NCBI GenBank assembly: GCA_965240465.1
Contig: OZ251219.1
Location: 800,001 to 864,000 of the forward strand
Reading direction: 5' to 3'
DNA length: 64,000 nucleotides
From: a bacterium
GTDB taxonomy: Bacteria; SAR324; JACQKK01
This document shows positions 12,348 through 64,000 of the stretch, one piece after another. A program made the translations under genes and the position numbers. Below the pieces are notes generated by a model that was not told the DNA's origin, made no database searches, and worked only from the letters and a program-made list of their open reading frames with translations. Each line of letters begins with the position of its first letter. Within the stretch, counting starts at the first letter, position 1.

Positions 12348-12406
12348 TCTCCTACGGGGGAGAGGGTTAGAGCAGGGAGAGAGGGAAGGAGAGGGGGAGG
12401 GGGGCA

Positions 12407-13795
12407 TCAGTCCAGAGGAATGTGTTGCCCTGAGTGTATTAGGAATTTACCCTCAGGAAGAGGATCTGAGATAAAATGGGTATGCATGAAAGCTACTTTG
12501 GTTTTGAGTTTCAGGTAGTCATGGAAGTCGCCATGGATGAGTCCACCGCCGACATCTGCGATGACCAGTTGTTCTTGTCCGTTGGGAAATTGCTTAAACA
12601 TTTGATAACGCTCGGGAGGAAGCACGTCGGCAGCGTTCATTTTTTCTAGTATCTCATAGGAGACATGGTCTCCGGTGAGGTACAGTAGGGTTTCTTTGTC
12701 GTTATTGATTTTCATTCGTAGCCCTAGGGTGGGGATTGGGTGTATGGAGTGAAAGAAGAAGCATTGGGTGCCACAAATTAAATGAGGACTTAGATCTGGG
12801 GTAATAGGATGGAAGGAATGCATGGCTTGAGCTTCTGCTAGGGAGCAATCGTAGACGGCCATGAGTTTTACTAGCAAGCAGTAATAGATTTCCTTAGTGG
12901 TGTAGAGATTCAGAGGCTTATTGTGATTAACACATTCCACCACATCCAGATGATCTTCGTGTACGTGGGAGAGTACTAGGGCATCAATATCATAGAGGGT
13001 TATTTGGAGTTTTTTAAGGTGGCAAGACAGATAGGAGGGACTATCCCAGAGCATTAATTTTTCCTTGAGGCGGAAAATATATCCATTGGCGGGGTTATTG
13101 GGATCAAAGCCGTTGCTACCGCCGAGCACGATAATTTCGTTAGTGTCGGAGGATTTATCTAATGGTTTATGTGTAAGGGGGTAGGGAGGTATTTGTTCAC
13201 CTGTAGTGGATATATCTATGGTCAGGGTTTGTTCTCCGTAGGAGACACTGTAGAGGCTATTTGCTATTTGCTGGATATAGATAGCAGGGGAGGAGTTTTT
13301 TTCGGGATACAGGAGTTGTTTTTCATCGTTTTGGAGGGGATGGAATTCCACGATGTCCTGCAATTGGTAGGGTTTATCGGCATGGGGATTTTTAACTGCG
13401 AGGTGTTGAAATTCTTTATCTAGTTGTGTGGCTATTTGGGGTATTGTGCCTGAGTTGATCATTTCATCTTTGGTAGGTCCATAGATGGTAACTCGGAGCA
13501 TTTCGCTAATGCGTTTGCATTGGTTTATTTTTGCGAACACGCGAAATTTATGTCCGCGGTCTGGTCCTCGCTGGACGAAGAGAAAGTGGTAGAAGGGGAA
13601 TTCCAAAGCTACTTGGGAGCAGGATTGGTGATATAGTTGAGATGGTAGTACTACTGCTTCTGGCATGGGGAGTTTTTTAAGCAGGATAAATTTTAGTACT
13701 TCTGGTGGGCAACCGAACAAGATGTTACCTTGCAAGGTGCAGAGCAGTTGGGATCCTTTACAGATGGGAACAAGGGAGATTGTTTCGTTTCTCAT
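12407..13795 (-). CDS. MBL-fold metallo-hydrolase
   Basis: SHVHEDH metal-binding motif, HSIHPIPT and YLTGD motifs. Confidence 0.75.
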   Translation of the reverse strand: MRNETISLVPICKGSQLLCTLQGNILFGCPPEVLKFILLKKLPMPEAVVLPSQLYHQSCSQVALEFPFYHFLFVQRGPDRGHKFRVFAKINQCKRISEMLRVTIYGPTKDEMINSGTIPQIATQLDKEFQHLAVKNPHADKPYQLQDIVEFHPLQNDEKQLLYPEKNSSPAIYIQQIANSLYSVSYGEQTLTIDISTTGEQIPPYPLTHKPLDKSSDTNEIIVLGGSNGFDPNNPANGYIFRLKEKLMLWDSPSYLSCHLKKLQITLYDIDALVLSHVHEDHLDVVECVNHNKPLNLYTTKEIYYCLLVKLMAVYDCSLAEAQAMHSFHPITPDLSPHLICGTQCFFFHSIHPIPTLGLRMKINNDKETLLYLTGDHVSYEILEKMNAADVLPPERYQMFKQFPNGQEQLVIADVGGGLIHGDFHDYLKLKTKVAFMHTHFISDPLPEGKFLIHSGQHIPLD

Positions 13796-14229
13796 GAGAT
13801 TTTTTCCCTACAGAACGTCTGTAGATATTTGATGAGAGCAGGAATCTAGCCCCATTATCATAGGTTGATTGTTACTTATATTAAGGAGTTTGCTCATTAT
13901 ATTGGGATTATATTTGGCATTGTATTTGGGATTATTTTGCTTGATATATCTTGCTGTGCCTGTTGTCAGTATGAAGATCTGGGAACTTTATTGAGTATAA
14001 TATTAAAAGTTGTTACAGACAAGCCCATTATATTATATCCTTATTAAGAACAAATACAATGACAAAGAACGCACCTGCCAGTACTTTACTGTTGAACGGA
14101 TACCTTACTCATAAGTATTTTTGGCTCATAAGTATTCTTAGCATAGAATTTTGGTCAGTGCTGGGGGTTGTGGTGGTGGGGGGGGGGGGGGGGGGTATCA
14201 TTTAATAGGGATTGTTTAGCGGTTGGTTT

Positions 14230-16302
14230 TTAGTTTTTTAGTAGTTGGAGATAATCTTTAGTGATATTTAGAGCTTCTAGTAGCAGGGGGTCATCTTTTT
14301 GTTGATTATCGGCGTCATTTTTTTTCTTTTGCTGTTTTTTGTATTTGGTTTGTAGTCCTGCAACGGAGATGGTGGTTTTATTTTTGCGATGGGTAATATA
14401 TTCGCGGATTTCTTGGCGAATGTCTTTAAAGTGCGGGTTAGTTTTTCGGCGTTTTTCTGATAGTGCTTTCAGTTTAGTGGCTAAGGGTGCGATGTTATTG
14501 GCTTTGATGGATATTTTATCAGGCAGAGCATCCCAGGGAAGAGCATTTTTCAGGGCTGCTTCGCCGATGTCTAGGTGGCTGTTAAGCGAGGGGAAGATAA
14601 TATCTGGTACCACTCCTTTTTTTTGGGTGGAAGAATGGCTAGGACGATAGAATTGAGCGACTGTAGCCCTAAGTGCCCCGAGGTCTTTTCTTAGAGTAAT
14701 GATGTTTTGGACTGTTCCCTTTCCAAAGGTAGAGCTATCTCCCACCAGCACTGCCCGACCGTAGTCTTTCAGAGCACCGGCTACAATCTCCGATGCCGAA
14801 GCACTAAAGCGGTCTATCAAGACGACCAGCGGACCTTTATAGAAGGCTTGTTTTTGCTTTCCATCATAGCTAGATACACTTTTAAGATAACGAACCTTCA
14901 CCATAACAGATTTAGGAATAAACAGATTACTCATATTGATGGCTTCATCAAGAGACCCTCCGCTATTGCCTCTGAGATCCAGCAGAACGGCATCAATGGA
15001 CTGATCTACAAAACTGGCAAGGATTTTTTTTACGTCCCGAGTGCTACTTTTGTAGTTGCGATTGCCCCGTCTTTTTTGGGCAAAATCTTGATAAAATGAC
15101 GGCAAAACAATGACCCCTATTTTAATCGTACCAGCAGGCATTTCAGAAGGCATTCCAGAAGGCATTCCAGAAGACATTTCCAGCTGATGAATACTACTTT
15201 GAGCTTCTGATTCCTTCAGTTCTATTTTGTCTCTGCGGATGCTGATCTTCAACGATTTTGTAAATTCGCCAGTTTCGCGTATCAAGCTCAGTCTTACGAT
15301 AGTTCCTCTTTTACCTCTGATCAATTTTACGACTTCTCCCAGTGGTTGGTGGGTTACATCCTCCATTTTTCTGATCCTGCCCTGCCCAACGGCTACGATT
15401 CTATCAGCAGGTTTTAAGCCTTTATGGCGGGCTGCTGCTCCTCCGGGAACAATGGTGTTAACGACGGTATAGCCATCTTCCCAACGCAGTGTAGCCCCAA
15501 TGCCCTCCAGAGAAAGACGCATGGCAATGTTGAAATTGTCTAAATCATCTTGGTTGAGATAAGCTGAATGGGGATCATAAGAATAAGCGTAGGCGTTTAG
15601 AAACAAGCTCACGATGTTTTTATCTTTCAGCTGCTGATGACGCAACCAGACACTTCGGTAGCGTCTTCTAAGAGTTTCAAGAGTTTCTTTAGAACTCTTA
15701 CCTGAGGATTGTTCTTTCAGCTGCTCATGGTATAGTCTAGCTTGCCAGATTTTTTCAGCATCGGTACGACTACGAGGCCAATCAGCCGCAGAACGATCTA
15801 GCCAGATTTTTTGAGGGGCAATTACCACCACTGGTTTTTTCAGCAGTTTCTCAATGAAATTTTTTCTTTCCAGCAAGCGTTTCTTAAATCGCTTATGGAT
15901 TGCAAATGCCAATTTTACTTGCCCGCGGGGCAAGTCATTAACGAGCTGTGGAATATTACCTTGGAACTCCTTCACATCAGCAGCGAGGAAATAGCTGCGT
16001 TCGGCATCCAGGATGGTGAGATATTGCTCCAATGTGGAGCGTGCCAATTTATTGTTGTACGGCAAACGCGATAAATGATTGTTCTGCAGTTTCTTGACGA
16101 TATAACTCAGGTCTGCCTGAGAGTAGCTTTCTTGTGCCCTGGACTTTGCGGGGGCAAGGAACAAGATAGCGATCGCCAGCAACAGGCAAAGCATTCTTCC
16201 CTTACCCTTAGCAATTTTGCGTTGCTTTTTAGGCAGGTTCACATCCGCAGATTGCCACTTGGGTACAGGCGGGATACTAAGGTCAAGATGATCAAAATTC
16301 AT
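14230..16302 (-). CDS. prc: Carboxy-terminal processing protease (S41, Prc/Tsp)
   Basis: DPHSAY, LEGIGATL, PDZ segment, DLRGNSGGSL, SASASEI, GKGTVQ. The start may instead be the ATG at 16194. Confidence 0.92.
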   Translation of the reverse strand: MNFDHLDLSIPPVPKWQSADVNLPKKQRKIAKGKGRMLCLLLAIAILFLAPAKSRAQESYSQADLSYIVKKLQNNHLSRLPYNNKLARSTLEQYLTILDAERSYFLAADVKEFQGNIPQLVNDLPRGQVKLAFAIHKRFKKRLLERKNFIEKLLKKPVVVIAPQKIWLDRSAADWPRSRTDAEKIWQARLYHEQLKEQSSGKSSKETLETLRRRYRSVWLRHQQLKDKNIVSLFLNAYAYSYDPHSAYLNQDDLDNFNIAMRLSLEGIGATLRWEDGYTVVNTIVPGGAAARHKGLKPADRIVAVGQGRIRKMEDVTHQPLGEVVKLIRGKRGTIVRLSLIRETGEFTKSLKISIRRDKIELKESEAQSSIHQLEMSSGMPSGMPSEMPAGTIKIGVIVLPSFYQDFAQKRRGNRNYKSSTRDVKKILASFVDQSIDAVLLDLRGNSGGSLDEAINMSNLFIPKSVMVKVRYLKSVSSYDGKQKQAFYKGPLVVLIDRFSASASEIVAGALKDYGRAVLVGDSSTFGKGTVQNIITLRKDLGALRATVAQFYRPSHSSTQKKGVVPDIIFPSLNSHLDIGEAALKNALPWDALPDKISIKANNIAPLATKLKALSEKRRKTNPHFKDIRQEIREYITHRKNKTTISVAGLQTKYKKQQKKKNDADNQQKDDPLLLEALNITKDYLQLLKN

Positions 16303-16381
16303 GTATTAGGTACAGCGAGTGGTTTGACTTAATCTATGTTTAATGTAGCATGGGTTGATGGCAATGAGGAAGTATGAAATT

Positions 16382-16665
16382 CCTTATGAAGTGCCTTTTA
16401 TGAGATGCCTTATGAAGTACCTTATGAAGTGCCTTTTATGAGATGCCTTATGAGATGCCTTATGAAGTACCTTATGAAGTGCCTTTTATGAGATGCCTTA
16501 TGAAGTACCTTATGAAGTACCTTATGAAGTGCCTTTTATGAGATGCCTTATGAAGTACCTTATGAAGTGCCTTTTATGAGATGCCTTATGAAGTACCTTA
16601 TGAAGTGCCTTTTATGAGATGCCTTATGAAATGTCTTTTATGAGATGCCTTATGAAGTGCCTTTT
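16382..16665. repeat. Composite 12/14-bp tandem array (CCTTATGAAGT(A/G), CCTTTTATGAGATG)
   Basis: About 22 contiguous units between divergent prc and the Trm112-like gene, with no unique spacers. Confidence 0.95.
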
Positions 16666-16701
16666 GCGGTTTAAGTTATTTATTGTTTTGAGTTTTGCTG
16701 A

Positions 16702-16974
16702 ATGCCTATAAGCTCTGAGTTGTTAGCCCTGCTGATTTGCCCAGCCACAAAATCTTCCCTGCGGCTAGCTACCCCAGCATTGATTAAGCAGCTGAATCGG
16801 GCGATTGCTTCAGGACGGCTAAAAAATCGGGGTGGACAAGTAGTGGACACACCACTGGAAGAAGGTTTGATGAGTGCTGATAATCAATGGCTGTATGCAG
16901 TGAGAAATGATGTCCCAGTCATGCTGATAGCAGAGGCTCTGCCTTTGTCAGGGTTTCTAACTGCTGAGGATTAA
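16702..16974 (+). CDS. Trm112-like (UPF0434/YcaR) protein
   Basis: LLALLICP at the N-terminus and YAVRNDVPVML at the C-terminus. Confidence 0.75.
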   Translation: MPISSELLALLICPATKSSLRLATPALIKQLNRAIASGRLKNRGGQVVDTPLEEGLMSADNQWLYAVRNDVPVMLIAEALPLSGFLTAED

Positions 16975-16997
16975 GGTACTGTGGACTTCAGTGCCAG

Positions 16998-17038
16998 CAA
17001 AATAGTCTAACCAAAATAGTCTAACCAAAATAGTCTGA
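16998..17038. repeat. 14-bp tandem repeat x3 (CAAAATAGTCTAAC)
   Basis: Directly upstream of the bolA RBS. Confidence 0.9.
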
Positions 17039-17050
17039 CTAGGATAAACC

Positions 17051-17314
17051 ATGACCATCCCTTTATCAAAATTACGCCACTTGCTAGAGCAAGCCTTTGT
17101 TGATGGTCTGGTATTGCTGGAATGTCCCCGAGCGGATGATAATCATTTTCAATGTGTGGTAGTATCCCAGCGTTTTGAGGGATGTACTCAGGTATCCCAA
17201 CATAAGATGGTCTACCAAGCCTTAGGAAGCTTGATGGGCGAAGAAGTACACGCCCTGGCTCTGCAAACCTATACCCCAAAAGATTGGCAAGCAGCTCAAC
17301 AACAAACGAATTAA
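17051..17314 (+). CDS. BolA/IbaG family protein
   Basis: HFQCVVVSQRFEG, QHKMVYQAL and VHALALQTYTP motifs. Confidence 0.9.
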   Translation: MTIPLSKLRHLLEQAFVDGLVLLECPRADDNHFQCVVVSQRFEGCTQVSQHKMVYQALGSLMGEEVHALALQTYTPKDWQAAQQQTN

Positions 17315-17377
17315 GATGCTCGCATTTTAAGATGTTCGCCACCAGCTATGGTCTCCACCTTATTCCTTGACTAGCCG

Positions 17378-18238
17378 ATGACCTTCATCCGTTTGCTGAT
17401 ATTACTGGTGTTAGGCTGGGGGGTTGCTCTGGGATTGATGAGCATCAGACCAGAATTACCTCCCCCGCCTAAGGCCAAGCCGATAGGGAATGCTACCATC
17501 GGCACTCTGACCAGCTTGATGGAAAAACAGCTTCAACATCTTAGCGGCTGGCTACCCAACGATACCCCGCTCGGACCAGGTAGCTGGCTGGACAACGCCG
17601 CTAATGAGCAACTGGGATTACTCAGCGTTTTGCGTTCTGTTTTGAAGGCAGTCCGAGATCAAGCCTCCCGCTCGCAGAATGCTCTCAATCGTGAGGTTGA
17701 TCTGGCTTATTCTTCTTGGTCTGTTGACCCCCGCCGTTGGAATAGTCCTGCTCCAGAAATCCTTTACTTGCGAGGCATTGATGCCTTAAATCGCTACCGA
17801 GACATGCTCAGAAATGGGCAAGCTCAATTTAACACCACCCCCGATAGCATTAACGCCATGCTACAAGCGATATCCACCAGCCTCTCTCAACAAGTTTCCC
17901 TGCTCTCTGCAGACCAAGAAATATTCACCACCCAAAGAGATGACCTATTCTATCAATCCCGAGGAACAGCCCTGGCCTCCCACTTGCTGCTTCAAGCACT
18001 GCTGGCAGATTTTCAATCTTTCTTTTCGGAGCTCTCCGACCAAAGCTCTACCGAGCAAGTATTGAACCTCCTGCAACAAGCCCTTAAATCACTACAGCGT
18101 GCAGACTTCCGCCCCCTGATAATCACCCAAGGACGCGGCCCCAGCCTCACTGCAGATCACATCCAGCGTATCCGCCAACCACTCCGACAATCCCTGGAGT
18201 ACCTAAGAAAAGCTAGCTTGATAGTGGAAGATCTGTAG
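17378..18238 (+). CDS. DUF2333-like membrane-anchored protein
   Basis: N-terminal TM segment; WLPND...WLDN and DDLFYQSRG resemble DUF2333. Confidence 0.6.
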   Translation: MTFIRLLILLVLGWGVALGLMSIRPELPPPPKAKPIGNATIGTLTSLMEKQLQHLSGWLPNDTPLGPGSWLDNAANEQLGLLSVLRSVLKAVRDQASRSQNALNREVDLAYSSWSVDPRRWNSPAPEILYLRGIDALNRYRDMLRNGQAQFNTTPDSINAMLQAISTSLSQQVSLLSADQEIFTTQRDDLFYQSRGTALASHLLLQALLADFQSFFSELSDQSSTEQVLNLLQQALKSLQRADFRPLIITQGRGPSLTADHIQRIRQPLRQSLEYLRKASLIVEDL

Positions 18239-18242
18239 TAGC

Positions 18243-18335
18243 TTCTCAGCATGTCTTTCTCAGCATGTCTTTCTCAGCATGTCTTTCTCAGCATGTCTTT
18301 CTCAGCATGTCTTTCTCAGCATGTCTTTCTCAGCA
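18243..18335. repeat. 14-bp tandem repeat x6.6 (TTCTCAGCATGTCT)
   Basis: Perfect units starting 4 bp after the upstream stop codon. Confidence 0.95.
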
Positions 18336-18449
18336 CGAACCTAGCATGCCATCTTCAATGATTTGTTCTACTTAAATCATGCTACAATGGCTATTGTTAT
18401 TCACTAGCATAATACAAGCTCCAAAGCTAAACAGACCTGAAAATGAAGC

Positions 18450-19436
18450 ATGGCTAATTTAATTCAACCTCCCGCTTGGCAGCTGCCTGAATCAGCGGCT
18501 ACTCCAGAGCACATCTACCTTAAAAGACGCCAACTATTGCAAGGCATGGGTTTCCTCGGAGTGGGGGCTTTGGCTACCTTAGGCTTACCCGAGCCTGCTC
18601 AAGCTCGCACCACCGTGGCAGACACTCTTAAGGGACTTAAAAAACTAAATGCAAGGACTGATAATCGCTTTACTACCAAACGAACGCTAACTCCTCACCT
18701 CACCGCTGCCCGTTACAACAATTTCTACGAATTTCATTCCCGTAAAAATGTTTGGTCTCAGGCACAAAAACTCAGCGTGCGTCCCTGGACAATCAAGGTA
18801 GACGGATTGGTAGCCAAGCCAAAAACCTTTGATATTGACTACCTGATAAGATCCATCCCCTTGGAAGAACGCATTTACCGCCTCCGCTGTGTAGAAGCAT
18901 GGAGCATGGTCGTTCCTTGGGTAGGTTTTCCCTTGAGTACCCTGATAAAAAAAGTACAACCCCTGTCAAATGCTCGCTTTATTCAACTGAAAACCTTCTT
19001 TAGACCAGAAGAAGCCCCAGCTCAAGCCCGTAAATCATTCTTTGCCAATGCCCTTCCCTGGCCCTACAACGAAGCCCTCACCATCCCTGAAGCCATGAAC
19101 GAACTTACCTTCCTAGCAGTAGGACTCTACGGACGACAACTCCCAAAACAAAACGGAGCCCCCATACGCTTGCTCACCCCTTGGAAATACGGCTTCAAAA
19201 GCATTAAGTCCATCGTCAGCATTACCTTTACCAGCCAGCAACCACCTACATTCTGGAACACCTTGGGGCCCAAGGAATATGGCTTCTTCTCCAATGTAGA
19301 CCCAAAAATCCCCCACCCCCGCTGGTCACAAGCATTTGAACGCGATATCGGCACCGAAAAACGCATTCCAACCCGATACTTAAATGGCTACCAAGCCTTC
19401 GTGGGACATCTTTACCAGCGTGGTCGCAATTATTAG
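18450..19436 (+). CDS. msrP: Protein-methionine-sulfoxide reductase catalytic subunit
   Basis: Twin-Arg signal (KRRQLL), YNNFYEF, RLRCVEAWSMVVPW, PWKYGFKSIKSI. Confidence 0.95.
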   Translation: MANLIQPPAWQLPESAATPEHIYLKRRQLLQGMGFLGVGALATLGLPEPAQARTTVADTLKGLKKLNARTDNRFTTKRTLTPHLTAARYNNFYEFHSRKNVWSQAQKLSVRPWTIKVDGLVAKPKTFDIDYLIRSIPLEERIYRLRCVEAWSMVVPWVGFPLSTLIKKVQPLSNARFIQLKTFFRPEEAPAQARKSFFANALPWPYNEALTIPEAMNELTFLAVGLYGRQLPKQNGAPIRLLTPWKYGFKSIKSIVSITFTSQQPPTFWNTLGPKEYGFFSNVDPKIPHPRWSQAFERDIGTEKRIPTRYLNGYQAFVGHLYQRGRNY

Positions 19437-19439
19437 CTA

Positions 19440-19560
19440 CCTTGCTTAGTTGCCTTGCTTAGTTGCCTTGCTTAGTTGCCTTGCTTAGTTGCCTTGCTTA
19501 GTTGCCTTGCTTAGTCACTCCTTGCTTAGTCACTCCTTGCTTAGTTGCCTTGCTTAGTTA
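19440..19560. repeat. 13/15-bp tandem array x9 (CCTTGCTTAGTTG, CCTTGCTTAGTCACT)
   Basis: Begins 3 bp after the msrP stop. Confidence 0.95.
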
Positions 19561-19612
19561 CTATTCCTAGTTATTTGACTTAAAACCGTCGCCCTAATTA
19601 TCTTTGGCATCC

Positions 19613-20644
19613 ATGAAGGACACCTCACCATTGCTGCGACAAGGCAGCGTAAAGAATCTGCGTCAAGCCCAGCGTGAAGACCAACTATGGTTTGAATTTA
19701 CCGATAATTACTCGGTATTTGATTGGGGAAAAATGCCCGATACCATTGCGGGCAAAGGACAAGCCCTAGCTGAGTTGGCGGAGTATTTTTTTATTCGCTT
19801 GGCAGATGAGAAATTTTGGAATGAGAGTGGTTTATCCCAGCATCAGAAAGTGCAGCCTTATCTACCGATTGGGAATCATTTTTTGCGGAGTGAACAAAAC
19901 GCAATTCTGGTATCTCTGGTGGATATTCCCAGCATTAGTGCTAGTCAGCTGACTGGCATTCTGGTGTATGATTATAGTTATGGTCGTCAAGCACGCCAGT
20001 TGGTGCCTTTGGAGGTAATTTTTCGCTTTGGAGTACCCGCAGGTTCAAGTTTGCTAAAGCGAGAGAGCTGGTACTCATTTCCCATTCATGAGGGAGCAGA
20101 ATTTGAGGAGCCTCTGATAGAATTTTCCACCAAGCTGGAGAGCAAGGACCGCATGCTATCCTATCAGGAGGCGATATTGATGCTTGGGGGAGATTTTTCT
20201 GCCTTTAGGCGTTTGCATGGAAAATCTCAGGCGGTGGCATTGGGTCTAAAAAGTATTCTTCAAGAATGCGGTTTGAAATTGTGGGACGGCAAATTAGAAT
20301 GGGCTCGGTGGGATAACGACTTCCTACTTGTGGACAGCATTGGGCCTGATGAATTACGGGTCAGCCGAGAAGAGGTAGTTTTTAGCAAGCAGTTTCTGCG
20401 TGATTTTTACTCGGGTACTCCTTGGGAGAGTGCCGTCCATGAGGGACGTCGTTTAGCAAAAGAGCGTGCCGAAGTAGATTGGGTATCCATAGTCAAGGAG
20501 GACTTGAAGATTGAGCCGCCTCCCTTGGAAGAGCCGTGGCTTAGAACGGCTGAGTATCTTTATCAAGATTTTGCGGCATTGGTGATTAATCGGCAACCCA
20601 GTGATAATTTTATAAGGGCGTTTCGGGATCTCCAGCGGTCTTAG
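19613..20644 (+). CDS. purC: SAICAR synthase
   Basis: QGSVKN, FTDNYSVFDWG, PLEVIFR, EFSTKLE, LWDGKLE, VDSIGPDE. Start taken at ATG 19613. Confidence 0.88.
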   Translation: MKDTSPLLRQGSVKNLRQAQREDQLWFEFTDNYSVFDWGKMPDTIAGKGQALAELAEYFFIRLADEKFWNESGLSQHQKVQPYLPIGNHFLRSEQNAILVSLVDIPSISASQLTGILVYDYSYGRQARQLVPLEVIFRFGVPAGSSLLKRESWYSFPIHEGAEFEEPLIEFSTKLESKDRMLSYQEAILMLGGDFSAFRRLHGKSQAVALGLKSILQECGLKLWDGKLEWARWDNDFLLVDSIGPDELRVSREEVVFSKQFLRDFYSGTPWESAVHEGRRLAKERAEVDWVSIVKEDLKIEPPPLEEPWLRTAEYLYQDFAALVINRQPSDNFIRAFRDLQRS

Positions 20645-20674
20645 GCTCCAGTTGTTGCTGTGGCGAGGTATTTC

Positions 20675-21559
20675 ATGTTCGGTTATTTGTGGTTATTGGT
20701 TGTTAAGGATTTGCGGGTGGATTGGCGTGGTGGCGAGCATTTGCCATCCTTGTTGTTATTTGTGCTTTTAATTTGGCTGATATTTGCCTTTGCCTTTGGT
20801 ACTCAGAGCGTGGCGGAGTTTCGTACCACGCCATTGGTGATTAAGCGTGCTCGTTTGGCAGGGGCAACTCCCCAGCAGGTGAAGACCCTCCAGAGCATGG
20901 AAGGTGAACGACATCTCCAGCCTCAGTCGTGGGTTAGGGCTTTCAATTTGGCAGCTAGCCAGTTGCAAACCAGTTTTTCTGTCCCTCTTGACCGAGCCAC
21001 CTTGTTACAATGGAGCCACCAAACACCCTTGCAACGACACACAGCTGGGTTGCTGTGGATGGTTCTACTGCTTAGCGGAGTACTGGGATTAAATCGCTCC
21101 CTTTATCTGGAAAGACAAAACCACGCTTGGCAGGCACTATTAATGACTCCTACCCCCAGACCGCTACTTTGGTTGGCAAAATGTGTGTCTAACACTCTGG
21201 CTCTGTCAGCAGTTATGATGCTTGCCATCATTGTTTCGGGGATATCTTTTCAGCTCTCCCTTTTGTTGGTATTACCACCTCTGACCCTGATAATAGCAGG
21301 CGGCATTCTGGGATTTACCGCATTGGGATCGCTATTAGCAGCACTTACTACCAGCCTTTCAGGCAAGGAGATACTCTTGCCCTTAATTCTTTATCCTTTG
21401 CTTATGCCCTTAATACTTTCTGGGGTACAAAGCACTCAGTTGGTGCTGGATGGGTACTCTCTCAGCCAGACTCAGCCATGGCTGGCACTTCTTTTTTGTT
21501 CTGACATACTTTTTTTGAGCTGTGGATTCTTGCTTTCCAAGATTAGCTTCACTAGCTAA
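20675..21559 (+). CDS. ccmB: Heme exporter protein B-like membrane protein
   Basis: KDLRVDWR, GLLWM...GLNRSLYLE, EILLPLILYPLLMP pattern, with a long internal insertion. Confidence 0.78.
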   Translation: MFGYLWLLVVKDLRVDWRGGEHLPSLLLFVLLIWLIFAFAFGTQSVAEFRTTPLVIKRARLAGATPQQVKTLQSMEGERHLQPQSWVRAFNLAASQLQTSFSVPLDRATLLQWSHQTPLQRHTAGLLWMVLLLSGVLGLNRSLYLERQNHAWQALLMTPTPRPLLWLAKCVSNTLALSAVMMLAIIVSGISFQLSLLLVLPPLTLIIAGGILGFTALGSLLAALTTSLSGKEILLPLILYPLLMPLILSGVQSTQLVLDGYSLSQTQPWLALLFCSDILFLSCGFLLSKISFTS

Positions 21560-21568
21560 GTGGTACTT

Positions 21569-21615
21569 GGGGGGTTGGGGGGGAGGTGGAGGTGGGGGGT
21601 TGGGGGGTTGGGGGG
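21569..21615 (+). other. G-rich tract with G-quadruplex potential (five G6-G7 runs)
   Basis: G6-TT-G7-AGGTGGAGGT-G6-TT-G6-TT-G6 between ccmB and recO. Confidence 0.7.
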
Positions 21616-21682
21616 TACCAGAAAAACTAGCCTGGGCAGGGTAAAACATGGGAGAAGAGAAAGAGAATTAGGTTTGGGCAAG

Positions 21683-22462
21683 ATGCAGTTATTGTCATCA
21701 GAGAGCATTTTATTGAGGAGGCGTGAGTTCCAAGACAGCCATTGGATTATCACCTTTTTGACTGCAGACCGAGGCTTGATAAAGGGGGTGGTGCGGGGAG
21801 CACGAAAATTGACTTCCCGCGGAGTAGGCAATTTTGAGCCTCTGAGCTCGGGGGTGATTTACTATCATATCAATCCCAATCGCGAGTTAGTACAGATTCG
21901 TAAACGCGATAACGCTGCCCAAAGCTGGTGGCAAAGCCAAAGCTACGAGAAATTTTGCTATGGGAGCTATCTAGCCGAATTGATGGAGCTAGGTCCGATC
22001 GCAGCTGAGCAAAGCACTGCTTGTTATCAATTACTTAGTGAAGGTTTGAAGGAGGTATTTCAAGCTTCGCGGCTGCGTTTGCTCCCCTTGATACGATTGC
22101 GTTTTGAGTTGAAGTACCTACGCTTAATGGGTATTCAGCCTAGTTGGGATGTGTGTGTCAGTTGCGGCAAAGTTCCTCCTTGGTCTGGCATTGGTGGTTT
22201 ATCTTTTTCTCGGGGAGGGATTTTATGTCCTTTGTGTGTCCGTCAGAATTCACCTGCTCCGCCTATATCATCTTCCAGCCTAGCCTTCATAAGTGCTTGG
22301 CAAGGCGGAGGAAGGCCGCTGAAACCTCAGCAAATCTGGTTGGAGCAGCTACTAGCTGCACTCAGTGCCTATCTTTGCTACCAAGTAGGACGTCAGCCAC
22401 GCTCCTTGAAATTGCTACCCAATCTAGACGAATTAGCCAGTGGAGAACAACCCGCAACCTAA
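21683..22462 (+). CDS. recO: DNA repair protein RecO
   Basis: FLTADRGLIKGVVRGARK, RFELKYL, CVSC...CPLC zinc finger. Start taken at ATG 21683. Confidence 0.9.
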   Translation: MQLLSSESILLRRREFQDSHWIITFLTADRGLIKGVVRGARKLTSRGVGNFEPLSSGVIYYHINPNRELVQIRKRDNAAQSWWQSQSYEKFCYGSYLAELMELGPIAAEQSTACYQLLSEGLKEVFQASRLRLLPLIRLRFELKYLRLMGIQPSWDVCVSCGKVPPWSGIGGLSFSRGGILCPLCVRQNSPAPPISSSSLAFISAWQGGGRPLKPQQIWLEQLLAALSAYLCYQVGRQPRSLKLLPNLDELASGEQPAT

Positions 22463-22582
22463 GCTGGATCTGATTGGCTACTCACAAAGATTTTAGCAGC
22501 ATAGCCAATTTATTTTGTGTTAGTATCTCCTTACTTAGTCCTGTTCCGCCATTAGCTAAACCTTATTCTAACAAGTCCCTTA

Positions 22583-23056: not shown

Positions 23057-23125
23057 AACAAATAATTGCCTCCTTCCGTACCTAATCACTACTCTTAAAG
23101 AACCCCCTTTTTCCGTATCGCTATT

Positions 23126-25264: not shown

Positions 25265-25353
25265 AAGGTCTGCCTAGTTAAGATAGGGGAGGTTATGGTA
25301 TTTCTTAAGAAATGAGCAACTTATGGAAAGTTTAAGTCAAGCTTGCCACAAGC

Positions 25354-41700: not shown

Positions 41701-41732
41701 ACTGCCTTAGCAACTACAATTACCAGCTTGGC

Positions 41733-52081: not shown

Positions 52082-52231
52082 GGAATAATCCTCATTCATA
52101 GCAGTAATACTCATTCTTCGGGTATGTTTATAATCTCAAGATTTTAGGGTACGCTGAGGTGGGCTAGGTTTTTAGCCTTAGGGCAATGTTTTTGGCCTTA
52201 AGACAATGTTTTCATCGGATAAGGAAAAATC

Positions 52232-53218: not shown

Positions 53219-53262
53219 GCGGGGCTATTGGAGAAATATATCAAGGGGAGAGAGGATGTGGT

Positions 53263-54219: not shown

Positions 54220-54254
54220 CACTTATATCCTTTTAGCTCGCCCATAATTTATGG

Positions 54255-55793
54255 CTACAAGGTACCTCGTCTTAAAAACAAAATACACAAGGTTACCACC
54301 TCCAACTTACCTATTAGCATCGCTGTGATTGCAACCGTTATTCCTGTACTAGAAAAACTCTCCCAACCAGCCAATACCGTTAACCCCTTGGCTCCTTCGG
54401 CTGTTGTAAAGGCTGGACCCACATTGTTCAGGACACTCAAAATAGATGCCAAAGCTCCTAAGGCAGAATGACCATCCAGGGTCAGCAACAAGGATAACAC
54501 CAACCAGCAACTTAAATGCAGTAACAAAAAAGCTAACACTCCTCCTAAATCACTCCAACTATCATCGCCTGATAAATCTGTACTATGTCCCCACACCCCC
54601 GCAGGATGAAGTATCTGTAACATCCCTCTTTTAAGGTTATGACCCATCAATATAACCCGCTGCCAACGCACCCCACTACCTCCGCTAGCCGTACAAGCTC
54701 CCACCCACATCAGCAACAACGATAATGCCTGCATAAACGAACTGCCCGGTAAACCCCAACCATGTGAATACCCAGTCGTGCTTAACATGGATGCCGCATG
54801 AAAAAATCCCTCCCGAATGCCCTGCTCCAAGGAAACCCCAAACTTGCTCCATGACCACATCAAAAATACCGCCCCCAACACTACTAATACCACATACCAA
54901 AACCACTCCCGACGCATCCCAATACTAACTGCCCACCATCTCCTCCAACATACCAACCCCAGTAAAATAAAATTCATGCCTCCCAAACACATCCCCAAAC
55001 TTAACAGCCACATCCCCTCGGTACCCAAATCAGCAGGCAGTCTTCCTAATAAACCACCTGTGGACAAGGTACCCATCGCATATACCCCAGCTTCCCAAAC
55101 AGATAATCCCGTCCCCTTTAATAACAATGCCAAACACAGCGTCCCTCCCACATACACAGGAAGAACCCACCGCAATACCTGATTAAACTGCCAACCTAAA
55201 CCAAAATTGCTCCCTCCTTGAACTCCAAAACCCGGCAAAGGTAATAAACCTTGTATCAATAAAATAGTCCCCATCCCTCCCAACCACTGAGAAGAACCCC
55301 GCCACCAAATCAGCATCTCCGATAACTCCTCATCAGCTGAAAATAAACTAGCCGCAGTACCCGTAAAACCAGCTACCGACTCAAATAAAGCCCCACCCAA
55401 CCCCACCCCAGGCAAAACCAACCAATATGGAATACTTCCCAGCACAACCGCTACCCCAAAACAATAACTCGCCATCAAAAAAGGATTGCCCGATAACCAA
55501 CCCATCCCAACAACCGAAAACCAACGACCAGCTACCAAAAACCTTAGACCCAAACCTCCCGCCAACCATAAAAAACCCAATACCAACAACTTGCTCCAAG
55601 CCCGATCGCCTAACACTCGCCCCCAAATCGCGGTGCCGAGCAACATAATACCCAGCAATAACAACAATACCCCTGTTGTTCTAGCGGCTTCACTGCCAGA
55701 TATAACCCTGCTCCATCTATATTGTGTGAGGTTATATCTTAGAGAACCTATTTTTTTACTTATTATAGTAAGAATAAGCATTATTACATCCAT
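54255..55793 (-). CDS. Divergent TrkH-family cation transporter
   Basis: FESVAGFTGTA, QWLGGMG, LSTGG, STTGYS, NNVGP, IGKLE. Start uncertain. Confidence 0.8.
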   Translation of the reverse strand: MDVIMLILTIISKKIGSLRYNLTQYRWSRVISGSEAARTTGVLLLLLGIMLLGTAIWGRVLGDRAWSKLLVLGFLWLAGGLGLRFLVAGRWFSVVGMGWLSGNPFLMASYCFGVAVVLGSIPYWLVLPGVGLGGALFESVAGFTGTAASLFSADEELSEMLIWWRGSSQWLGGMGTILLIQGLLPLPGFGVQGGSNFGLGWQFNQVLRWVLPVYVGGTLCLALLLKGTGLSVWEAGVYAMGTLSTGGLLGRLPADLGTEGMWLLSLGMCLGGMNFILLGLVCWRRWWAVSIGMRREWFWYVVLVVLGAVFLMWSWSKFGVSLEQGIREGFFHAASMLSTTGYSHGWGLPGSSFMQALSLLLMWVGACTASGGSGVRWQRVILMGHNLKRGMLQILHPAGVWGHSTDLSGDDSWSDLGGVLAFLLLHLSCWLVLSLLLTLDGHSALGALASILSVLNNVGPAFTTAEGAKGLTVLAGWESFSSTGITVAITAMLIGKLEVVTLCILFLRRGTL

Positions 55794-56273
55794 ATTTTAC
55801 TTAAAAAAATACCATATTACTATCAATATTATTTACAATTTCCTTACAATCCTTTTATCAATAAACTTTACAATAAAGACATCAACGTGTAGAACAGAAC
55901 TAATAGCAGTTAAACACTCGTTGTAGAAGTAAATGTCTTTAATAAATGTGCTACACCTGAAGAGTCGCATAAAATAAGGTGCTTAAAAAAAAACAGGTGT
56001 TTAATCAAAGGAAAACAAGACATGTAATTCATGGTTCTGCCGTTATTTTGAGAAAATACGTTGATATTAACGGAGATGATTTTACTGAAAACTGATCATT
56101 TCAAATATTTTTTATTTTCAATAGCACGCAGTTTAGTCAATACATAATAAATAAAGTTGTGAGAAATAAATTAAAAAATGAGTCATATGTTTCTATTATG
56201 CTTTAATGCATAAAAACAATTCATACAAGTGACTATAACTGGCAAGTGCCATTTATTAGCATAGGAGAAAGTC

Positions 56274-62058: not shown

Positions 62059-62117
62059 TTTATCTTTTCTGGTTGGCGGGAGGAAGAATAAGAGTCAATA
62101 GCTGATAGCGAGTTTTC

Positions 62118-64000
62118 TCACTTAAAGGCGCGTCGCAGCTGGATCTGTAGTGCCGTGTGCCTTAGCAAAGGACGGTCGTTTTTGGCAGCGATGGCAATGG
62201 CTTTGGGGCTACCCACTAAGATTGCCAGCTGCTTGGCACGGGTGATGGCAGTATAAAGGAGGTTCCGTTGAAGCATTATATGATGCTGAGTGACCATGGG
62301 GGTGATCACGGCAGCGTACTCGCTACCCTGGGCTTTGTGGACGGTAGTAGCATAGCCCAGCACGCAAGATTCCAACTCCTGATCTTGATAGGTGACCTTA
62401 CGCCCATCAAAGAGCAACAAGGTTTGGTTCTTATGAGGAAAATGAGCCACTATTTCACCGATATCACCATTAAAAACTTCATTATCGTAGTCGTTCTTGG
62501 TTTGCAGGATGCGGTCTCCTACTCGGTATTGCCTGTTCCCGCATTGGAAGGTCTGTCCAGTAGGATTTAGCTCTTGTTGCAATAATCGGTTCAGTTCATC
62601 TACTCCTACGGCTCCTCTTTTCATGGGTGCCAAAACTTGAATATCTCTTAATGGGTCTAGGTTAAATCTTTTGGGGATGCGTTCTGTAATCATGTAGATA
62701 ATCTTCTTAGCGGCGTCCTGAGGAGAATCAGCTGGCACAAAAAAGAAATCCTGAGGCTGTTGAGGATTCGGCTTGGTTAGGTCGGGCATGTTCCCTCTGA
62801 GAATGGCATGGGCATTAATAATAATGCGGCTAGACCTAGCCTGACGAAAAATGCTCTCCAAACGCACCGCAGGTAGTAATTTGCTTTTAAGCAAATCATC
62901 CAGCACCCGACCCGCTCCCACCGAAGGTAATTGCTCAACATCGCCCACTAGTACCAAATGACATCGCTCTGGTATCGCCCGTAACAAAGAATACATCAGC
63001 AGGGTATCCAACATGGAACTCTCATCTACAATCACCCACTCCGTAACTAAGGGATGCGAACGATTGCGTCCAAAACCCCTGGGAGAAGCCTCCAATAAAC
63101 GATGTACGGTAGTAGCTGTATGTCCTGTCGCAGTGGCTAGACGCTTGGCAGCTTTACCAGTGGGAGCACATAAAGCCAACTTGTCTAGCCTATCCCCTAA
63201 CAAAGCCAATATAAAATGCACAATGGTGGTCTTGCCCGTACCCGGACCTCCAGTGATAATCAGTACCTTAGATCTTAAGGCTTGCAAAATCGCTTCCCGT
63301 TGCTGCTCGCTGAGAGTCATGCCCGTATCCAACTCCGCCTTCTTTAGCTCCTCCTGCAACAGAATCTTTGAACTCGGCTGATCAGTGCTTCCCATCAATC
63401 TGCTTAGCATTTCCGCTATTTCGCGTTCGGCATGTTCTAGCTTATTCAGCTGTAACCATTGATTAGGTTCTGCTAGAATATCAGCATCAGCACCATCCAC
63501 AGCACCACCCACAGCACCACCCACAGCACCACCCACAGCATCATCCGCAATACCATCCACTTGCGTGCCATTTCCACTCTCAGTCTCCAAAGCATGAACA
63601 TATCCTGCTAAGCAGATCTTGTTGGCAGCTTCATCCATATCCTCCACTGAAGATCCCAGCATCTCGGCTGCCTGCTGCAAAATTGCACCCCGAGGCATGG
63701 CGGTGTGTCCACGATTGCTAGCCTCCTCCAAAGCATACAAAAGCCCCGCCTCCAAACGCTGAGGGTCATCCTGCCCAAGACCATTATGACGTGCCAATAC
63801 ATCCGCACTCCGAAACCCAATCCCCGATACCTCCAATGCCAACTGATAAGGCTTCTTCTGCATCACCTCCAAAGATCTATCCCCGTACAAGCTGTGAATC
63901 CGACCAGCAAACAAAGGCGATAAACCCGCTCCATGCAAAAATAAAAGCACCTCCCGTTGCTGACGCTGAACCTGCCACTCCTCCTCTAAAACCTTTATCA
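62118..64000 (-). CDS. recD2: ATP-dependent RecD2-like helicase (5' partial)
   Basis: GIGFRSAD, TGGPGTGKTT, APTGKAA, VDESSM, TVHKAQGSE. The frame stays open to the window edge. Confidence 0.93.
   Translation of the reverse strand, partial: IKVLEEEWQVQRQQREVLLFLHGAGLSPLFAGRIHSLYGDRSLEVMQKKPYQLALEVSGIGFRSADVLARHNGLGQDDPQRLEAGLLYALEEASNRGHTAMPRGAILQQAAEMLGSSVEDMDEAANKICLAGYVHALETESGNGTQVDGIADDAVGGAVGGAVGGAVDGADADILAEPNQWLQLNKLEHAEREIAEMLSRLMGSTDQPSSKILLQEELKKAELDTGMTLSEQQREAILQALRSKVLIITGGPGTGKTTIVHFILALLGDRLDKLALCAPTGKAAKRLATATGHTATTVHRLLEASPRGFGRNRSHPLVTEWVIVDESSMLDTLLMYSLLRAIPERCHLVLVGDVEQLPSVGAGRVLDDLLKSKLLPAVRLESIFRQARSSRIIINAHAILRGNMPDLTKPNPQQPQDFFFVPADSPQDAAKKIIYMITERIPKRFNLDPLRDIQVLAPMKRGAVGVDELNRLLQQELNPTGQTFQCGNRQYRVGDRILQTKNDYDNEVFNGDIGEIVAHFPHKNQTLLLFDGRKVTYQDQELESCVLGYATTVHKAQGSEYAAVITPMVTQHHIMLQRNLLYTAITRAKQLAILVGSPKAIAIAAKNDRPLLRHTALQIQLRRAFK

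What the first reader, a model, noticed from the sequence alone, without database searches (positions are those of the whole stretch)
12350..64000. Saw-tooth G/T versus C/A strand skew on a few-kb scale, independent of gene direction
By eye the + strand repeatedly starts G/T-rich, drifts to C/A-rich and resets abruptly in intergenic DNA (near 12350, 14160, 19600, 21560, 23880, 27820, 33380, 36850, 41530, 45860, 52150). Hand counts: 47341-47400 has 25 G/8 C and 49681-49740 has 6 G/24 C, both in + genes. 28021-28080 has 27 G/8 C and 55501-55560 has 4 G/27 C, both in - genes. A single-origin replichore skew or sense-strand bias does not explain this. A C-to-G reset is the polarity expected at an origin or a site of bidirectional ssDNA exposure, and several resets coincide with tandem arrays or G/C tracts.
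Basis: partly seen in the sequence, partly recalled or inferred. Interest (0 to 1): 0.75.

Follow-up and report, generated by a model that had tools for sequence, protein, structure and literature searches.

The report
Gene-phased G-to-C ramp in a bacterium
In this small bacterial genome and its sister species, nearly every gene starts G-rich and ends C-rich at silent codon positions, a strong pattern that close relatives lack and that is tied to genes rather than to replication origins.

Summary
The saw-tooth is real. All 4 hand counts are exact, and all 11 listed resets are upward skew jumps at gene boundaries. It holds across the whole 1.6 Mb genome.

It is not independent of genes. A ramp with abrupt resets looks the same on both strands, so the + and - gene examples both reflect one rule: the sense strand runs from G-rich (5') to C-rich (3').

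- Sense GC3 skew falls about 0.2 per kb from a fixed value at the gene start.
- It resets fully at transcription-unit boundaries and about half inside operons.
- A replichore offset of about ±0.1 is added on top.
- Large gene-specific offsets make up 69% of the variance and are conserved in the sister species.
- At fourfold sites only G and C exchange; T and A stay flat.

The pattern is strong in 2 of 2 genomes of the genus. It is weak or absent in 10 sampled relatives and in unrelated controls.

Origin-like replication, G tracts or tandem arrays, tRNA loss and amino-acid composition are rejected or unsupported as causes. The cause is not settled. I favour position-dependent, transcription-linked asymmetric mutation (0.4) over selection on Rho loading (0.3). 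My 6 paper searches found no bacterial precedent. The nearest analogue is the gene-end GC skew of fungi, which has the opposite polarity.

The parts
12348..12406 (.). Reset at a convergent gene boundary, in a G-rich tract
   Evidence: Jump of +0.30; sequence read.
12407..19436 (.). Long ramp across two - genes and two + genes. Plus-strand GC3 skew goes from +0.5..+0.7 to -0.6.
19437..19603 (.). Reset in an intergenic 13-nt tandem array
   Evidence: Jump of +0.39 to +0.43; array found.
19604..23734 (+). Run of + genes (purC-like, ccmB-like, recO, SH3, nitroreductase). GC3 skew goes from +0.3..+0.5 to -0.6, with a partial reset at 21560.
23885..27612 (-). Ramp over the response-regulator and histidine-kinase genes. 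Plus-strand GC3 skew goes from +0.1..+0.4 to -0.7, so the sense strand is G-rich at the 5' end.
27613..27819 (.). Strong reset; the region includes tRNA-Arg
   Evidence: Jump of +0.63 to +0.66; tRNA found.
36549..36880 (.). Strong reset in a 132-bp x3 repeat region
   Evidence: Jump of +0.64 to +0.68; repeat found.
36881..39472 (-). Ramp in clpB. Plus-strand GC3 skew goes from +0.7 to -0.3.
41500..41775 (.). Reset at a convergent boundary holding a 13-nt x12.7 array
   Evidence: Jump of +0.50; array found.
45858..50560 (+). Ramp over the TPR gene and the following histidine-kinase gene. GC3 skew goes from +0.4..+0.8 to -0.7.
50561..50647 (.).
   Evidence: Jump of +0.49.
52082..52231 (.). Reset upstream of mdh
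   Evidence: Jump of +0.39 to +0.46.
52232..55793 (.). Decline across a convergent pair with no reset at the 35-nt gap. Both units are G-rich on their sense strand. Plus-strand GC3 skew goes from +0.5..+0.7 to -1.0.
55794..56273 (.).
   Evidence: Jump of +0.67.
62118..64000 (-). Ramp in the recD2-like helicase gene. Plus-strand GC3 skew goes from +0.2 to -0.8.

Best explanation
What is shown. In this genus the sense strand of almost every gene carries a ramp. Silent positions are G-rich and C-poor at the 5' end and become C-rich and G-poor towards the 3' end. The ramp falls about 0.2 GC3-skew units per kb over the first 2 kb or so. It starts from a fixed value at the ORF start. It resets fully at transcription-unit boundaries and about half at ORF starts inside operons. 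An ordinary replichore offset of about +/-0.1 and large, evolutionarily conserved gene-specific offsets are added on top. Read on one strand across genes of both orientations, this gives the saw-tooth.

What is inferred (my preferred cause). The ramp comes from a transcription-linked, strand-asymmetric mutation pressure whose strength depends on position in the transcript. Where nascent RNA is not yet covered by ribosomes (each ORF start, most of all the first ORF of a unit), RNA polymerase is uncoupled and R-loop-like states leave the non-template strand single-stranded for longer. That strand then drifts in the same direction as the leading strand does in replication (G up, C down). Towards 3' ends this term fades. 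An opposite term then dominates, from convergent or antisense read-through or from a uniform template-strand effect.

The trait arose in the ancestor of this reduced-genome genus. The change that caused it was not identified.
For: Ramp in 682 genes of at least 900 nt:
- GC3 skew runs from +0.10 to about -0.17 across deciles.
- The mean slope is -0.32 per gene, 73% of slopes are negative, and t = -16.9.

The same slope appears in every gene class.
- Leading genes -0.35, lagging genes -0.31.
- By operon position -0.29 to -0.38.

Anchoring at the 5' end.
- The start value stays constant with gene length.
- The end value falls with length, from -0.01 to -0.15 in leading genes and from -0.17 to -0.36 in lagging genes.

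Reset sizes follow transcription-unit logic.
- Convergent boundaries: +0.31 to +0.47.
- Divergent boundaries: +0.32 to +0.38.
- Co-directional, long gaps: +0.20 to +0.25.
- Co-directional, gaps of 50 nt or less: +0.06 to +0.16.

It acts at the nucleotide level, not the tRNA level.
- All eight fourfold codon families and the twofold sites shift.
- Codon positions 1 and 2 shift more than in relative G008.
- The non-coding 100 nt upstream of starts are G>C in the genus (+0.05 to +0.08) but at or below about 0 in 5 of 6 sampled relatives; G004 reads +0.03 and -0.01.

The signature matches the replication asymmetry of the same genome.
- 5' minus 3': dG +0.071, dC -0.078, dT +0.010, dA -0.002.
- Leading minus lagging: dG +0.051, dC -0.063, dT +0.012, dA 0.000.

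Other points.
- Highly expressed translation genes (fusA, tuf, the rpsJ cluster) show little skew and no ramp, as expected if codon selection resists a mutational pressure.
- Gene-specific excess of G3 rises with protein hydrophobicity (rho = 0.28).
- The trait is specific to the lineage and holds for the same orthologues: G000 +0.16 to -0.17 against G008 -0.03 to -0.07 in 81 pairs.
Against: - A G-for-C exchange with flat T and A is not what plain cytosine deamination predicts.
- Between G000 and related strains in run X3, direct G<->C differences are the rarest class, 52 of 1404. Transitions make up 977 of 1404.
- No candidate cause was found. rho, mfd, rnhA, rnhB, a UDG, mutS, topA and nusG are each present in 5 of 5 genomes compared, namely G000, G001 and three relatives without the ramp.
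- The sign change to C-rich 3' ends needs a second term that I did not show.
- The ramp explains only about 10% of segment variance. Between-gene variance is 69%, and lead/lag, hydrophobicity, length, GC3 and neighbour orientation together explain only R2 = 0.23 of it.
- Ramp size does not change with protein conservation (rho about 0).
- No expression, R-loop or transcript-end data exist for this organism.
Confidence: 0.4

Rival explanations
1. Selection on Rho loading, a 'termination-potential ramp'. ORF starts are kept C-poor and G-rich so that Rho cannot load on RNA not yet covered by ribosomes. Gene ends are C-rich and G-poor so that Rho loads once the last ribosome leaves. The lineage has almost no hairpin-plus-U terminators.
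For: - Rho and NusG are present.
- Canonical terminators are found at only 21 of 761 3' ends in G000, and at 0-7% in all five genomes scanned.
- The axis that changes is C minus G, plus purine content (fourfold purines 0.458 to 0.395). Gene-level GC4 skew correlates with purine content at r = 0.82. C minus G is the axis reported to predict Rho termination (PMC13323073: abstract and passages found).
- Partial resets at operon-internal ORF starts and weak ramps in heavily translated genes fit exposure of uncovered RNA.
Against: - Relatives share Rho, NusG and the scarcity of terminators but have no ramp.
- C-rich 3' ends are strongest at convergent boundaries. There the neighbour's read-through RNA becomes G-rich, which is poor Rho substrate.
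- It requires strong selection at thousands of silent sites in a reduced genome.
- The ramp is no stronger in conserved genes.
- T is slightly higher at 5' ends.
- The identical signature of the leading/lagging asymmetry would be a coincidence.
- Relatives show no C-rich 3' UTR from which a Rho loading site could have 'moved'.
Confidence: 0.3
2. Replication-type cause. Resets are origin-like sites of bidirectional synthesis or ssDNA exposure, or lagging-strand fragments are primed at fixed places at gene boundaries. Exposure time of the template then falls linearly within each unit.
For: - The polarity fits, and the compositional signature equals the replichore asymmetry.
- In leading-strand coordinates both gene classes run from about +0.22 to about 0.
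- Unit size of 1-2 kb resembles Okazaki fragments (my recollection, no call).
Against: -: the model predicts that the ends of leading genes stay constant and their starts rise with length. Observed starts are flat (+0.28, +0.27, +0.26 for genes of 900-2200 nt) and ends fall.
- Reset size depends on gene orientation and operon status.
- The ramp is absent in the ribosomal-protein and EF region.
- The local amplitude exceeds the replichore term, which a fork-polarity model cannot give if oriC forks dominate.
Confidence: 0.05
3. Translational selection. Codon accuracy or processivity becomes more valuable along an ORF, so 'better' C-ending or A-ending codons replace G-ending ones towards the 3' end.
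For: - It would explain why the ORF is a unit, and the direction at twofold sites: G/(G+A) falls from 0.49 to 0.35 and C/(C+T) rises from 0.34 to 0.40.
Against: - tRNAs with C at the first anticodon position (C34; anticodon CNN) exist for 7 of 8 fourfold boxes.
- The ramp is weakest, not strongest, in translation genes.
- Resets inside operons are only about half.
- Non-coding flanks and codon positions 1 and 2 are also affected.
- Some gene segments use no C-ending codons at all among G/C-ending ones, giving GC3 skew of +/-1.0.
Confidence: 0.05
4. Mosaic history. Frequent small inversions scramble a replichore skew, or foreign genes arrive with other codon habits.
For: Between-gene variance is large at 69%. 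The cumulative skew curve is locally disturbed around the window.
Against: - Blocks would carry only the replichore amplitude of about +/-0.1 and would have no internal ramp.
- Gene-specific skew and ramps are shared by orthologues of G001 at 61% median protein identity (r = 0.64 and 0.56 over 141 pairs).
- Amino-acid mix explains little: expected SD 0.016 against observed 0.146.
Confidence: 0.03

Closest known systems
[quoted passage not shown]
   Same: Skews of opposite sign at the two gene ends, with intermediate values between them. The pattern is seen at fourfold sites, reaches into flanking DNA, changes amino-acid use along proteins, and leaves AT skew nearly uniform. The authors likewise argue against C-to-T deamination, and the cause is unresolved there too (mutational or adaptive).
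   Different: The polarity is reversed: fungi are C-rich at the 5' end and G-rich at the 3' end. Those are eukaryotic Pol II genes. Here the organism is a bacterium with operons, partial resets at internal ORFs, and a much larger local amplitude (GC3 skew up to +/-0.8 to 1.0).
Replication-associated GC skew of bacterial chromosomes
   Same: The same compositional signature at fourfold sites (G up, C down, T and A nearly flat). The genome also has an ordinary replichore skew with turning points near 600 kb and 1540 kb.
   Different: That skew keeps one sign over hundreds of kb and follows fork direction. The ramp repeats in every gene, follows gene direction, and is equal in leading and lagging genes.
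Transcription-associated strand asymmetry and 5'-proximal mutation gradients. Examples: non-transcribed-strand C deamination in E. coli, 5'-end strand-specific mutation in human genes, and decay of somatic hypermutation with distance from the promoter (all recalled, not read here).
   Same: A sense-strand asymmetry that is strongest near the transcript start and fades over 1-2 kb.
   Different: In bacteria only a uniform asymmetry along genes is described, as far as my searches went. Here the sign flips within genes, T and A are not involved, and the trait is confined to one genus.
Rho-avoidance purine bias of genes in bacteria with runaway transcription (Dierksheide et al. 2026, PMC13323073; abstract and found passages read)
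   Same: Silent-site composition along the C-minus-G and purine axis, tied to transcription direction rather than replication. Rho is present.
   Different: That bias is described as a property of whole genes. A search of its text for 'gradient' and 'along the gene' found 0 occurrences. Here composition changes sign along each gene.
N-shaped replication skew domains of mammalian genomes (recalled, not read here)
   Same: Linear decline of skew between abrupt upward jumps, and invariance under reverse complementation.
   Different: Those domains are hundreds of kb to Mb long and bounded by origins, with amplitude independent of length. Here the units are genes, the start value is fixed, and the end value depends on length.

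Membership tests
Replication-origin skew switch (chirochore boundary) | Skew sign follows fork direction and stays constant over a replichore | tested here: not met
   The ramp has the same slope in leading (-0.35) and lagging (-0.31) genes. A separate replichore-scale skew exists with turning points near 600 and 1540 kb.
Replication-origin skew switch (chirochore boundary) | Origin machinery (DnaA boxes, dnaA/dnaN neighbourhood) at the switch | not tested
   I did not look for this. About 860 boundary resets in 1.6 Mb make it implausible.
Multi-origin or fixed-phase lagging-strand exposure model | Exposure falls linearly from a unit boundary, so on the leading-strand sequence the unit end stays at baseline and the unit start rises with unit length | tested here: not met
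   Leading-gene starts are flat (+0.28, +0.27, +0.26) while their ends fall (+0.03, -0.08, -0.10) for genes of 900-2200 nt. Lagging genes behave the same way in the sense direction.
Multi-origin or fixed-phase lagging-strand exposure model | Resets are independent of gene orientation and operon structure | tested here: not met
   Convergent +0.31 to +0.47, divergent +0.32 to +0.38, co-directional long gaps +0.20 to +0.25, gaps of 50 nt or less +0.06 to +0.16.
Bacterial transcription-associated asymmetry (non-template C deamination) | Sense strand enriched in both G and T at neutral sites | tested here: not met
   At fourfold sites G goes 0.218 to 0.155 and C 0.227 to 0.310, but T goes 0.314 to 0.296 and A stays at 0.240. 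Gene-level r(GC4 skew, TA4 skew) = 0.09.
Bacterial transcription-associated asymmetry (non-template C deamination) | Strength scales with expression | not testable with these tools
   No RNA run is listed for this organism. The only proxy, the fusA/tuf/rpsJ region, shows weak skew.
Fungal-type opposite gene-end GC skew (PMC3315797) | Opposite skews at the 5' and 3' ends, present at fourfold sites, extending into flanks, affecting amino acids, with uniform AT skew | tested here: met
Fungal-type opposite gene-end GC skew (PMC3315797) | Polarity: C-biased 5' end and G-biased 3' end | tested here: not met
   Reversed here: G-biased at the 5' end and C-biased at the 3' end.
Rho-avoidance composition bias (PMC13323073) | Rho present in the genome | tested here: met
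   TIGR00767 scores 690 bits in G000, above the cut-off; it is also present in G001 and three relatives.
Rho-avoidance composition bias (PMC13323073) | Whole-gene sense-strand purine excess and low excess C | tested here: inconclusive
   True only for the 5' parts. Fourfold purine content falls from 0.458 to 0.395 along units and C overtakes G.
Rho-avoidance composition bias (PMC13323073) | Composition changes Rho-dependent termination | not testable with these tools
   This needs reporter or transcript-end data.
Translational codon ramp or accuracy gradient | Confined to codon choice, full reset at every ORF, strongest in highly expressed genes | tested here: not met
   Flanks and codon positions 1 and 2 are affected. 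Resets inside operons are about half. Translation genes show no ramp.

The most novel reading that the evidence does not exclude
The ramp is an adaptive positional code written in silent sites. In a lineage almost without hairpin terminators, every ORF start is made Rho-proof (G-rich, C-poor) and every gene end is made Rho-prone (C-rich, G-poor). Termination, polarity and protection of uncoupled RNA polymerase would then be set by a continuous C-minus-G gradient along each gene, not by discrete signals.
Probability: 0.3. Interest if true: 0.85.

Novelty: new variant of a known kind. Interest (0 to 1): 0.75.

Why it matters
Strand skews in bacteria are usually treated as a replichore-scale signal plus a uniform gene-strand term. 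Here a kb-scale ramp that changes sign within genes is larger than the replication signal. It alters protein composition along genes, and it is switched on in one genus and off in its relatives.

That on/off contrast within one family gives a natural experiment on an open question. The question is how far silent sites in bacteria are shaped by transcription-linked mutation, and how far by selection on nascent RNA such as Rho loading and transcription-translation coupling.

There is also a practical point. Tools that use GC skew to find origins, inversions or misassemblies would be misled in such genomes.

Tried and rejected
- G/C homopolymer tracts as reset markers. Skew around 259 runs of 7 nt or more is symmetric (+0.14 left, +0.21 right), so there is no jump.
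- Tandem-array or G-run richness as a co-trait. It does not co-segregate with the ramp: G008 has 12 arrays and 5.0 runs per 100 kb without a ramp, and G001 has the ramp with 0.5 runs per 100 kb.
- Gene loss as the cause. rho, mfd, rnhA, rnhB, UDG, mutS, topA and nusG are each present in 5 of 5 genomes.
- Loss of C34 (anticodon CNN) tRNAs. Rejected; the genome has 44 tRNAs.
- Loss of hairpin terminators in the genus. They are rare in all five genomes scanned. The window scan for promoter-like and terminator-like sites is at chance: 31 against 29.5 +/- 4.7, and 25 against 20.5 +/- 4.9.
- Specific 5'-3' or cross-boundary RNA pairing. Only z = -0.27 and -0.34 against mononucleotide shuffles, 150 pairs each. 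That is no more than composition gives.
- Amino-acid mix as the cause of gene offsets. Rejected.
- Link to protein conservation. None.
- Population mutation spectrum. Only contigs were available and only 40 of about 1570 differing places were listed, so no position-resolved test was possible.
- RNA data. No RNA holder is listed.
- The search for related loci returned only distant relatives, 65% identity or less. I used those loci as unrelated controls.
- Earlier-notes look-ups for skew findings returned nothing.


Full report
SETTING

The window is bases 800001-864000 of a single-contig genome of 1,599,138 bp with 45% G+C. It is bacterial. Of 40 long ORFs in the window, 36 have Pfam matches, among them sigma-54 activators, TatC, ClpB, RecO, TrkH and RecD2. 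There are three tRNA genes and no other Rfam hit. An earlier AI note calls the organism SAR324-related; I did not check that label.

Genes were called with a crude caller of my own. It takes the longest ORF of at least 90 aa, scores codon usage, and picks greedily. This gave 1180 genes covering 87.5% of the genome. Starts may be set too far upstream. 'Transcription units' here are only runs of co-directional genes with gaps under 50 nt. The origin (about 600 kb) and terminus (about 1540 kb) are read from cumulative skew.

- All four hand counts are exact.
- In the window, 500-bp GC skew spans -0.54 to +0.41.
- Genome-wide the SD of 500-bp skew is 0.202, against 0.066 expected from sampling.
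- The increments are positively skewed (+0.31 +/- 0.06), and jumps above 0.4 are 94 upward against 39 downward. This is a true saw-tooth: slow falls and abrupt rises.
- All 11 listed resets show upward jumps of +0.14 to +0.64. Six exceed the window's 95th percentile. All 11 sit at gene boundaries.
- There is no periodicity.

WHAT IT IS

A falling ramp with upward resets is unchanged by reverse complementation. The same ramp in + and - genes therefore means one rule on the sense strand.

The average ramp:
- In 682 genes of at least 900 nt, sense GC3 skew falls from +0.10 in the first decile to about -0.17 in the last deciles.
- The mean slope is -0.32 per gene, 73% of slopes are negative, and t = -16.9.

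What exchanges:
- At fourfold sites, by decile of my gap-defined units of at least 900 nt, G goes from 0.218 to 0.155 and C from 0.227 to 0.310. T (0.314 to 0.296) and A (0.240 throughout) hardly move.
- All eight fourfold families shift.
- At twofold sites G/(G+A) falls from 0.49 to 0.35 and C/(C+T) rises from 0.34 to 0.40.
- Gly, Val and Asp fall along proteins, while Gln, Thr, Asn, Lys and Pro rise.

At fourfold sites r = 0.09.

In the window, plus-strand GC3 skew per roughly 300 nt reaches +0.8 and -1.0.

ANATOMY

- The slope is alike in leading (-0.35) and lagging (-0.31) genes, with an offset of about 0.2 between the two classes.
- It is also alike in every operon position, from -0.29 to -0.38.
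- Reset size depends on boundary type:
  - convergent, +0.31 to +0.47;
  - divergent, +0.32 to +0.38;
  - co-directional with long gaps, +0.20 to +0.25;
  - gaps of 50 nt or less, +0.06 to +0.16.
- In 130 co-directional pairs with gaps under 50 nt, the upstream gene runs from +0.27 to +0.02 and the downstream gene restarts at +0.18. That is about half a reset.
- The ramp is roughly linear from the first codons.
- Genes of 2.7 kb or more show no mean slope. Many of these are repeat-rich Glug-motif genes with GC3 skew near -0.5.
- After stop codons the sense skew flips within about 50 nt.

VARIANCE

For 3855 segments of about 100 codons, the variance of GC3 skew is 0.146, of which 0.018 is sampling.
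- Leading versus lagging explains 5.6%.
- Adding distance from the start raises this to 15.2%, with a slope of -0.19 per kb.
- Between-gene differences account for 69%.

These gene offsets are not due to amino-acid mix. The expected SD is 0.016 against 0.146 observed. They rise with leading-strand position (rho 0.33) and with hydrophobicity (rho 0.28). Six predictors together reach only R2 = 0.23.

So the saw-tooth seen by eye is the average ramp plus large gene-specific offsets read across genes of alternating direction. One example is 52232-55793, where two convergent units are both G-rich on their sense strand, and the plus-strand skew steps down instead of resetting.

LINEAGE

With the same pipeline, slopes were as follows.

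| Genome | Relation | Genes | Slope | Note |
|---|---|---|---|---|
| G000 | this genome | 683 | -0.330 | |
| G001 | same genus | 165 | -0.392 | 400 kb of 1.72 Mb sampled; t = -10.4 |
| G008 | same family | 139 | -0.053 | |
| G009 | same family | 41 | +0.028 | |
| G004 | same family | 49 | -0.048 | |
| G006 | same family | 40 | -0.035 | |
| G011 | same family | 43 | -0.092 | t = -2.4 |
| G007 | same family | 10 | -0.026 | |
| G002 | same family | 7 | +0.019 | |
| G014 | sister family | 67 | -0.004 | |
| G015 | sister family | 49 | +0.051 | |
| G017 | sister family | 38 | -0.082 | |

As unrelated controls I used 37 of the 79 distant loci, those of at least 20 kb, in four G+C bins. Their slopes were +0.036, -0.002, +0.067 and -0.010.

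The SD of per-gene GC3 skew is 0.30-0.32 in the genus against 0.05-0.15 elsewhere.

For the same orthologues, G000 runs from +0.16 to -0.17 while G008 stays flat at -0.03 to -0.07 (81 pairs). G000 and G001 orthologues (141 pairs, median protein identity 61%) share gene-mean skew (r = 0.64) and ramp size (r = 0.56). The pattern is therefore maintained, not a relic.

Public contigs of two runs match the window exactly over pieces of 2.7-3.9 kb. These runs may be the source sample, so this is weak support against an assembly artefact.

TESTS OF CAUSES

(a) Origin-like or fixed-phase lagging-strand exposure. This predicts that, on the leading-strand sequence, unit ends stay at baseline and unit starts rise with length. 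Instead, starts are constant (leading about +0.27, lagging about 0 for genes of 900-2200 nt). Ends fall with length in both classes, from -0.01 to -0.15 and from -0.17 to -0.36. The better fit is a 5'-anchored ramp plus an additive replichore offset. Reset size also depends on gene arrangement.

(b) G tracts and tandem arrays are not causal.

(c) Translational selection. C34 (anticodon CNN) tRNAs are present for 7 of 8 fourfold boxes. The fusA, tuf and rpsJ region shows no ramp. Flanks and codon positions 1 and 2 are affected.

(d) Specific RNA pairing is not supported.

(e) Candidate gene losses: none was found among eight genes.

(f) Hairpin terminators are rare throughout the family.

(g) Signature. 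The 5'-minus-3' shift at fourfold sites (dG +0.071, dC -0.078, dT +0.010, dA -0.002) is parallel to the leading-minus-lagging shift (dG +0.051, dC -0.063, dT +0.012, dA 0.000).

(h) Strain differences in run X3 are mainly transitions (977 of 1404). G<->C differences number 52 of 1404. The G-for-C exchange is therefore an equilibrium outcome and not the result of direct transversions. From the figures, first decile against last, G/A changes 1.41-fold, T/C 1.45-fold and purine/pyrimidine 1.30-fold.

READING

Shown: a gene-phased, 5'-anchored G-to-C ramp on the sense strand, specific to this genus.

Inferred: I favour a transcription-linked, position-dependent asymmetric mutation pressure (0.4). 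Four points support it.
- The signature equals the replication asymmetry.
- The effect is very large in a reduced genome.
- It reaches non-coding flanks and amino acids.
- It is weakest in genes under strong codon selection.

Selection on Rho loading (0.3) explains the C-minus-G axis and the ORF-level resets in one stroke. It fits less well with relatives that share Rho, NusG and terminator scarcity but lack the ramp. It also fits poorly with the strongest C-richness lying at convergent ends. The remaining probability is spread over the minor rivals and causes I have not thought of.

LITERATURE

Six searches found no report of an intragenic GC-skew ramp in bacteria.
- The nearest analogue is the gene-end GC skew of fungi, with opposite polarity (PMC3315797; abstract and Discussion read).
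- The Rho and purine-bias paper (PMC13323073; abstract, outline and found passages) has 0 occurrences of 'gradient' or 'along the gene'.
- A 2023 review of strand asymmetries (PMC10030826; found passages only) has 0 occurrences of 'gradient'.
- PMC5909445, on R-loops and antisense RNA in E. coli, was seen only as a search listing.

Subscription journals are not covered, so a precedent may exist there. Other works named under Closest known systems are recalled and were not read here.

Noticed in passing
window 1-12347: Four tandem paralogous giant genes with the GLUG motif (about 1000, 1229, 1228 and 666 aa). They contain internal 90-156-bp repeats. Their sense GC3 skew is -0.3 to -0.9 although their all-site skew is positive. 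Similar genes lie at 691-716 kb and 793-800 kb of the genome.
   Followed up: partly
window 16374-16663, 18243-18335, 19440-19559, 23803-23874, 39533-39618, 41535-41700, 45112-45347: Near-perfect tandem arrays of 12-16-nt units (38-88 nt at 16374-16663) lie in intergenic gaps and at gene ends. Genome-wide there are 32 arrays per 100 kb, covering 5.6% of the bases. The density in relatives is 0.8-17 per 100 kb.
   Followed up: partly
window 14160-14196; whole genome: There is a G run of about 19 bases. The genome has 46 G or C runs of 10 or more, against 4 A or T runs of 10 or more. Relative G008 has a similar density of such runs and G001 has few.
   Followed up: partly
window 27771-27845: tRNA-Arg with anticodon GCG. 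The genome's 44 tRNAs include Arg CCT, GCG, TCG and TCT but no ACG. CGY codons would therefore be read by a G34 tRNA and not by the usual inosine tRNA.
   Followed up: no
window 36447-36847: A 132-bp unit is repeated three times (94% matches). It spans the 5' end of the TrkH gene and its upstream region.
   Followed up: no
genome 255696-271494 (outside the window): The rnhA gene is followed by four fragments of its C-terminal 40 codons, each with a stop. They are spaced about 3.0-3.5 kb apart, beside a 5-kb gene. This suggests a repeated segmental duplication.
   Followed up: no
window 42957-45347: A 778-aa ribosomal protein S1 homologue carries a Lys/Glu/Ala-rich repetitive tail (units of 21-123 nt). 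A 15-nt array runs across its stop codon.
   Followed up: no
window 21560-21616: The predicted recO ORF begins inside a (TTGGGGGG)-like array, so the true start is probably further downstream. A partial skew reset lies here even though the gap to the upstream gene is zero.
   Followed up: no
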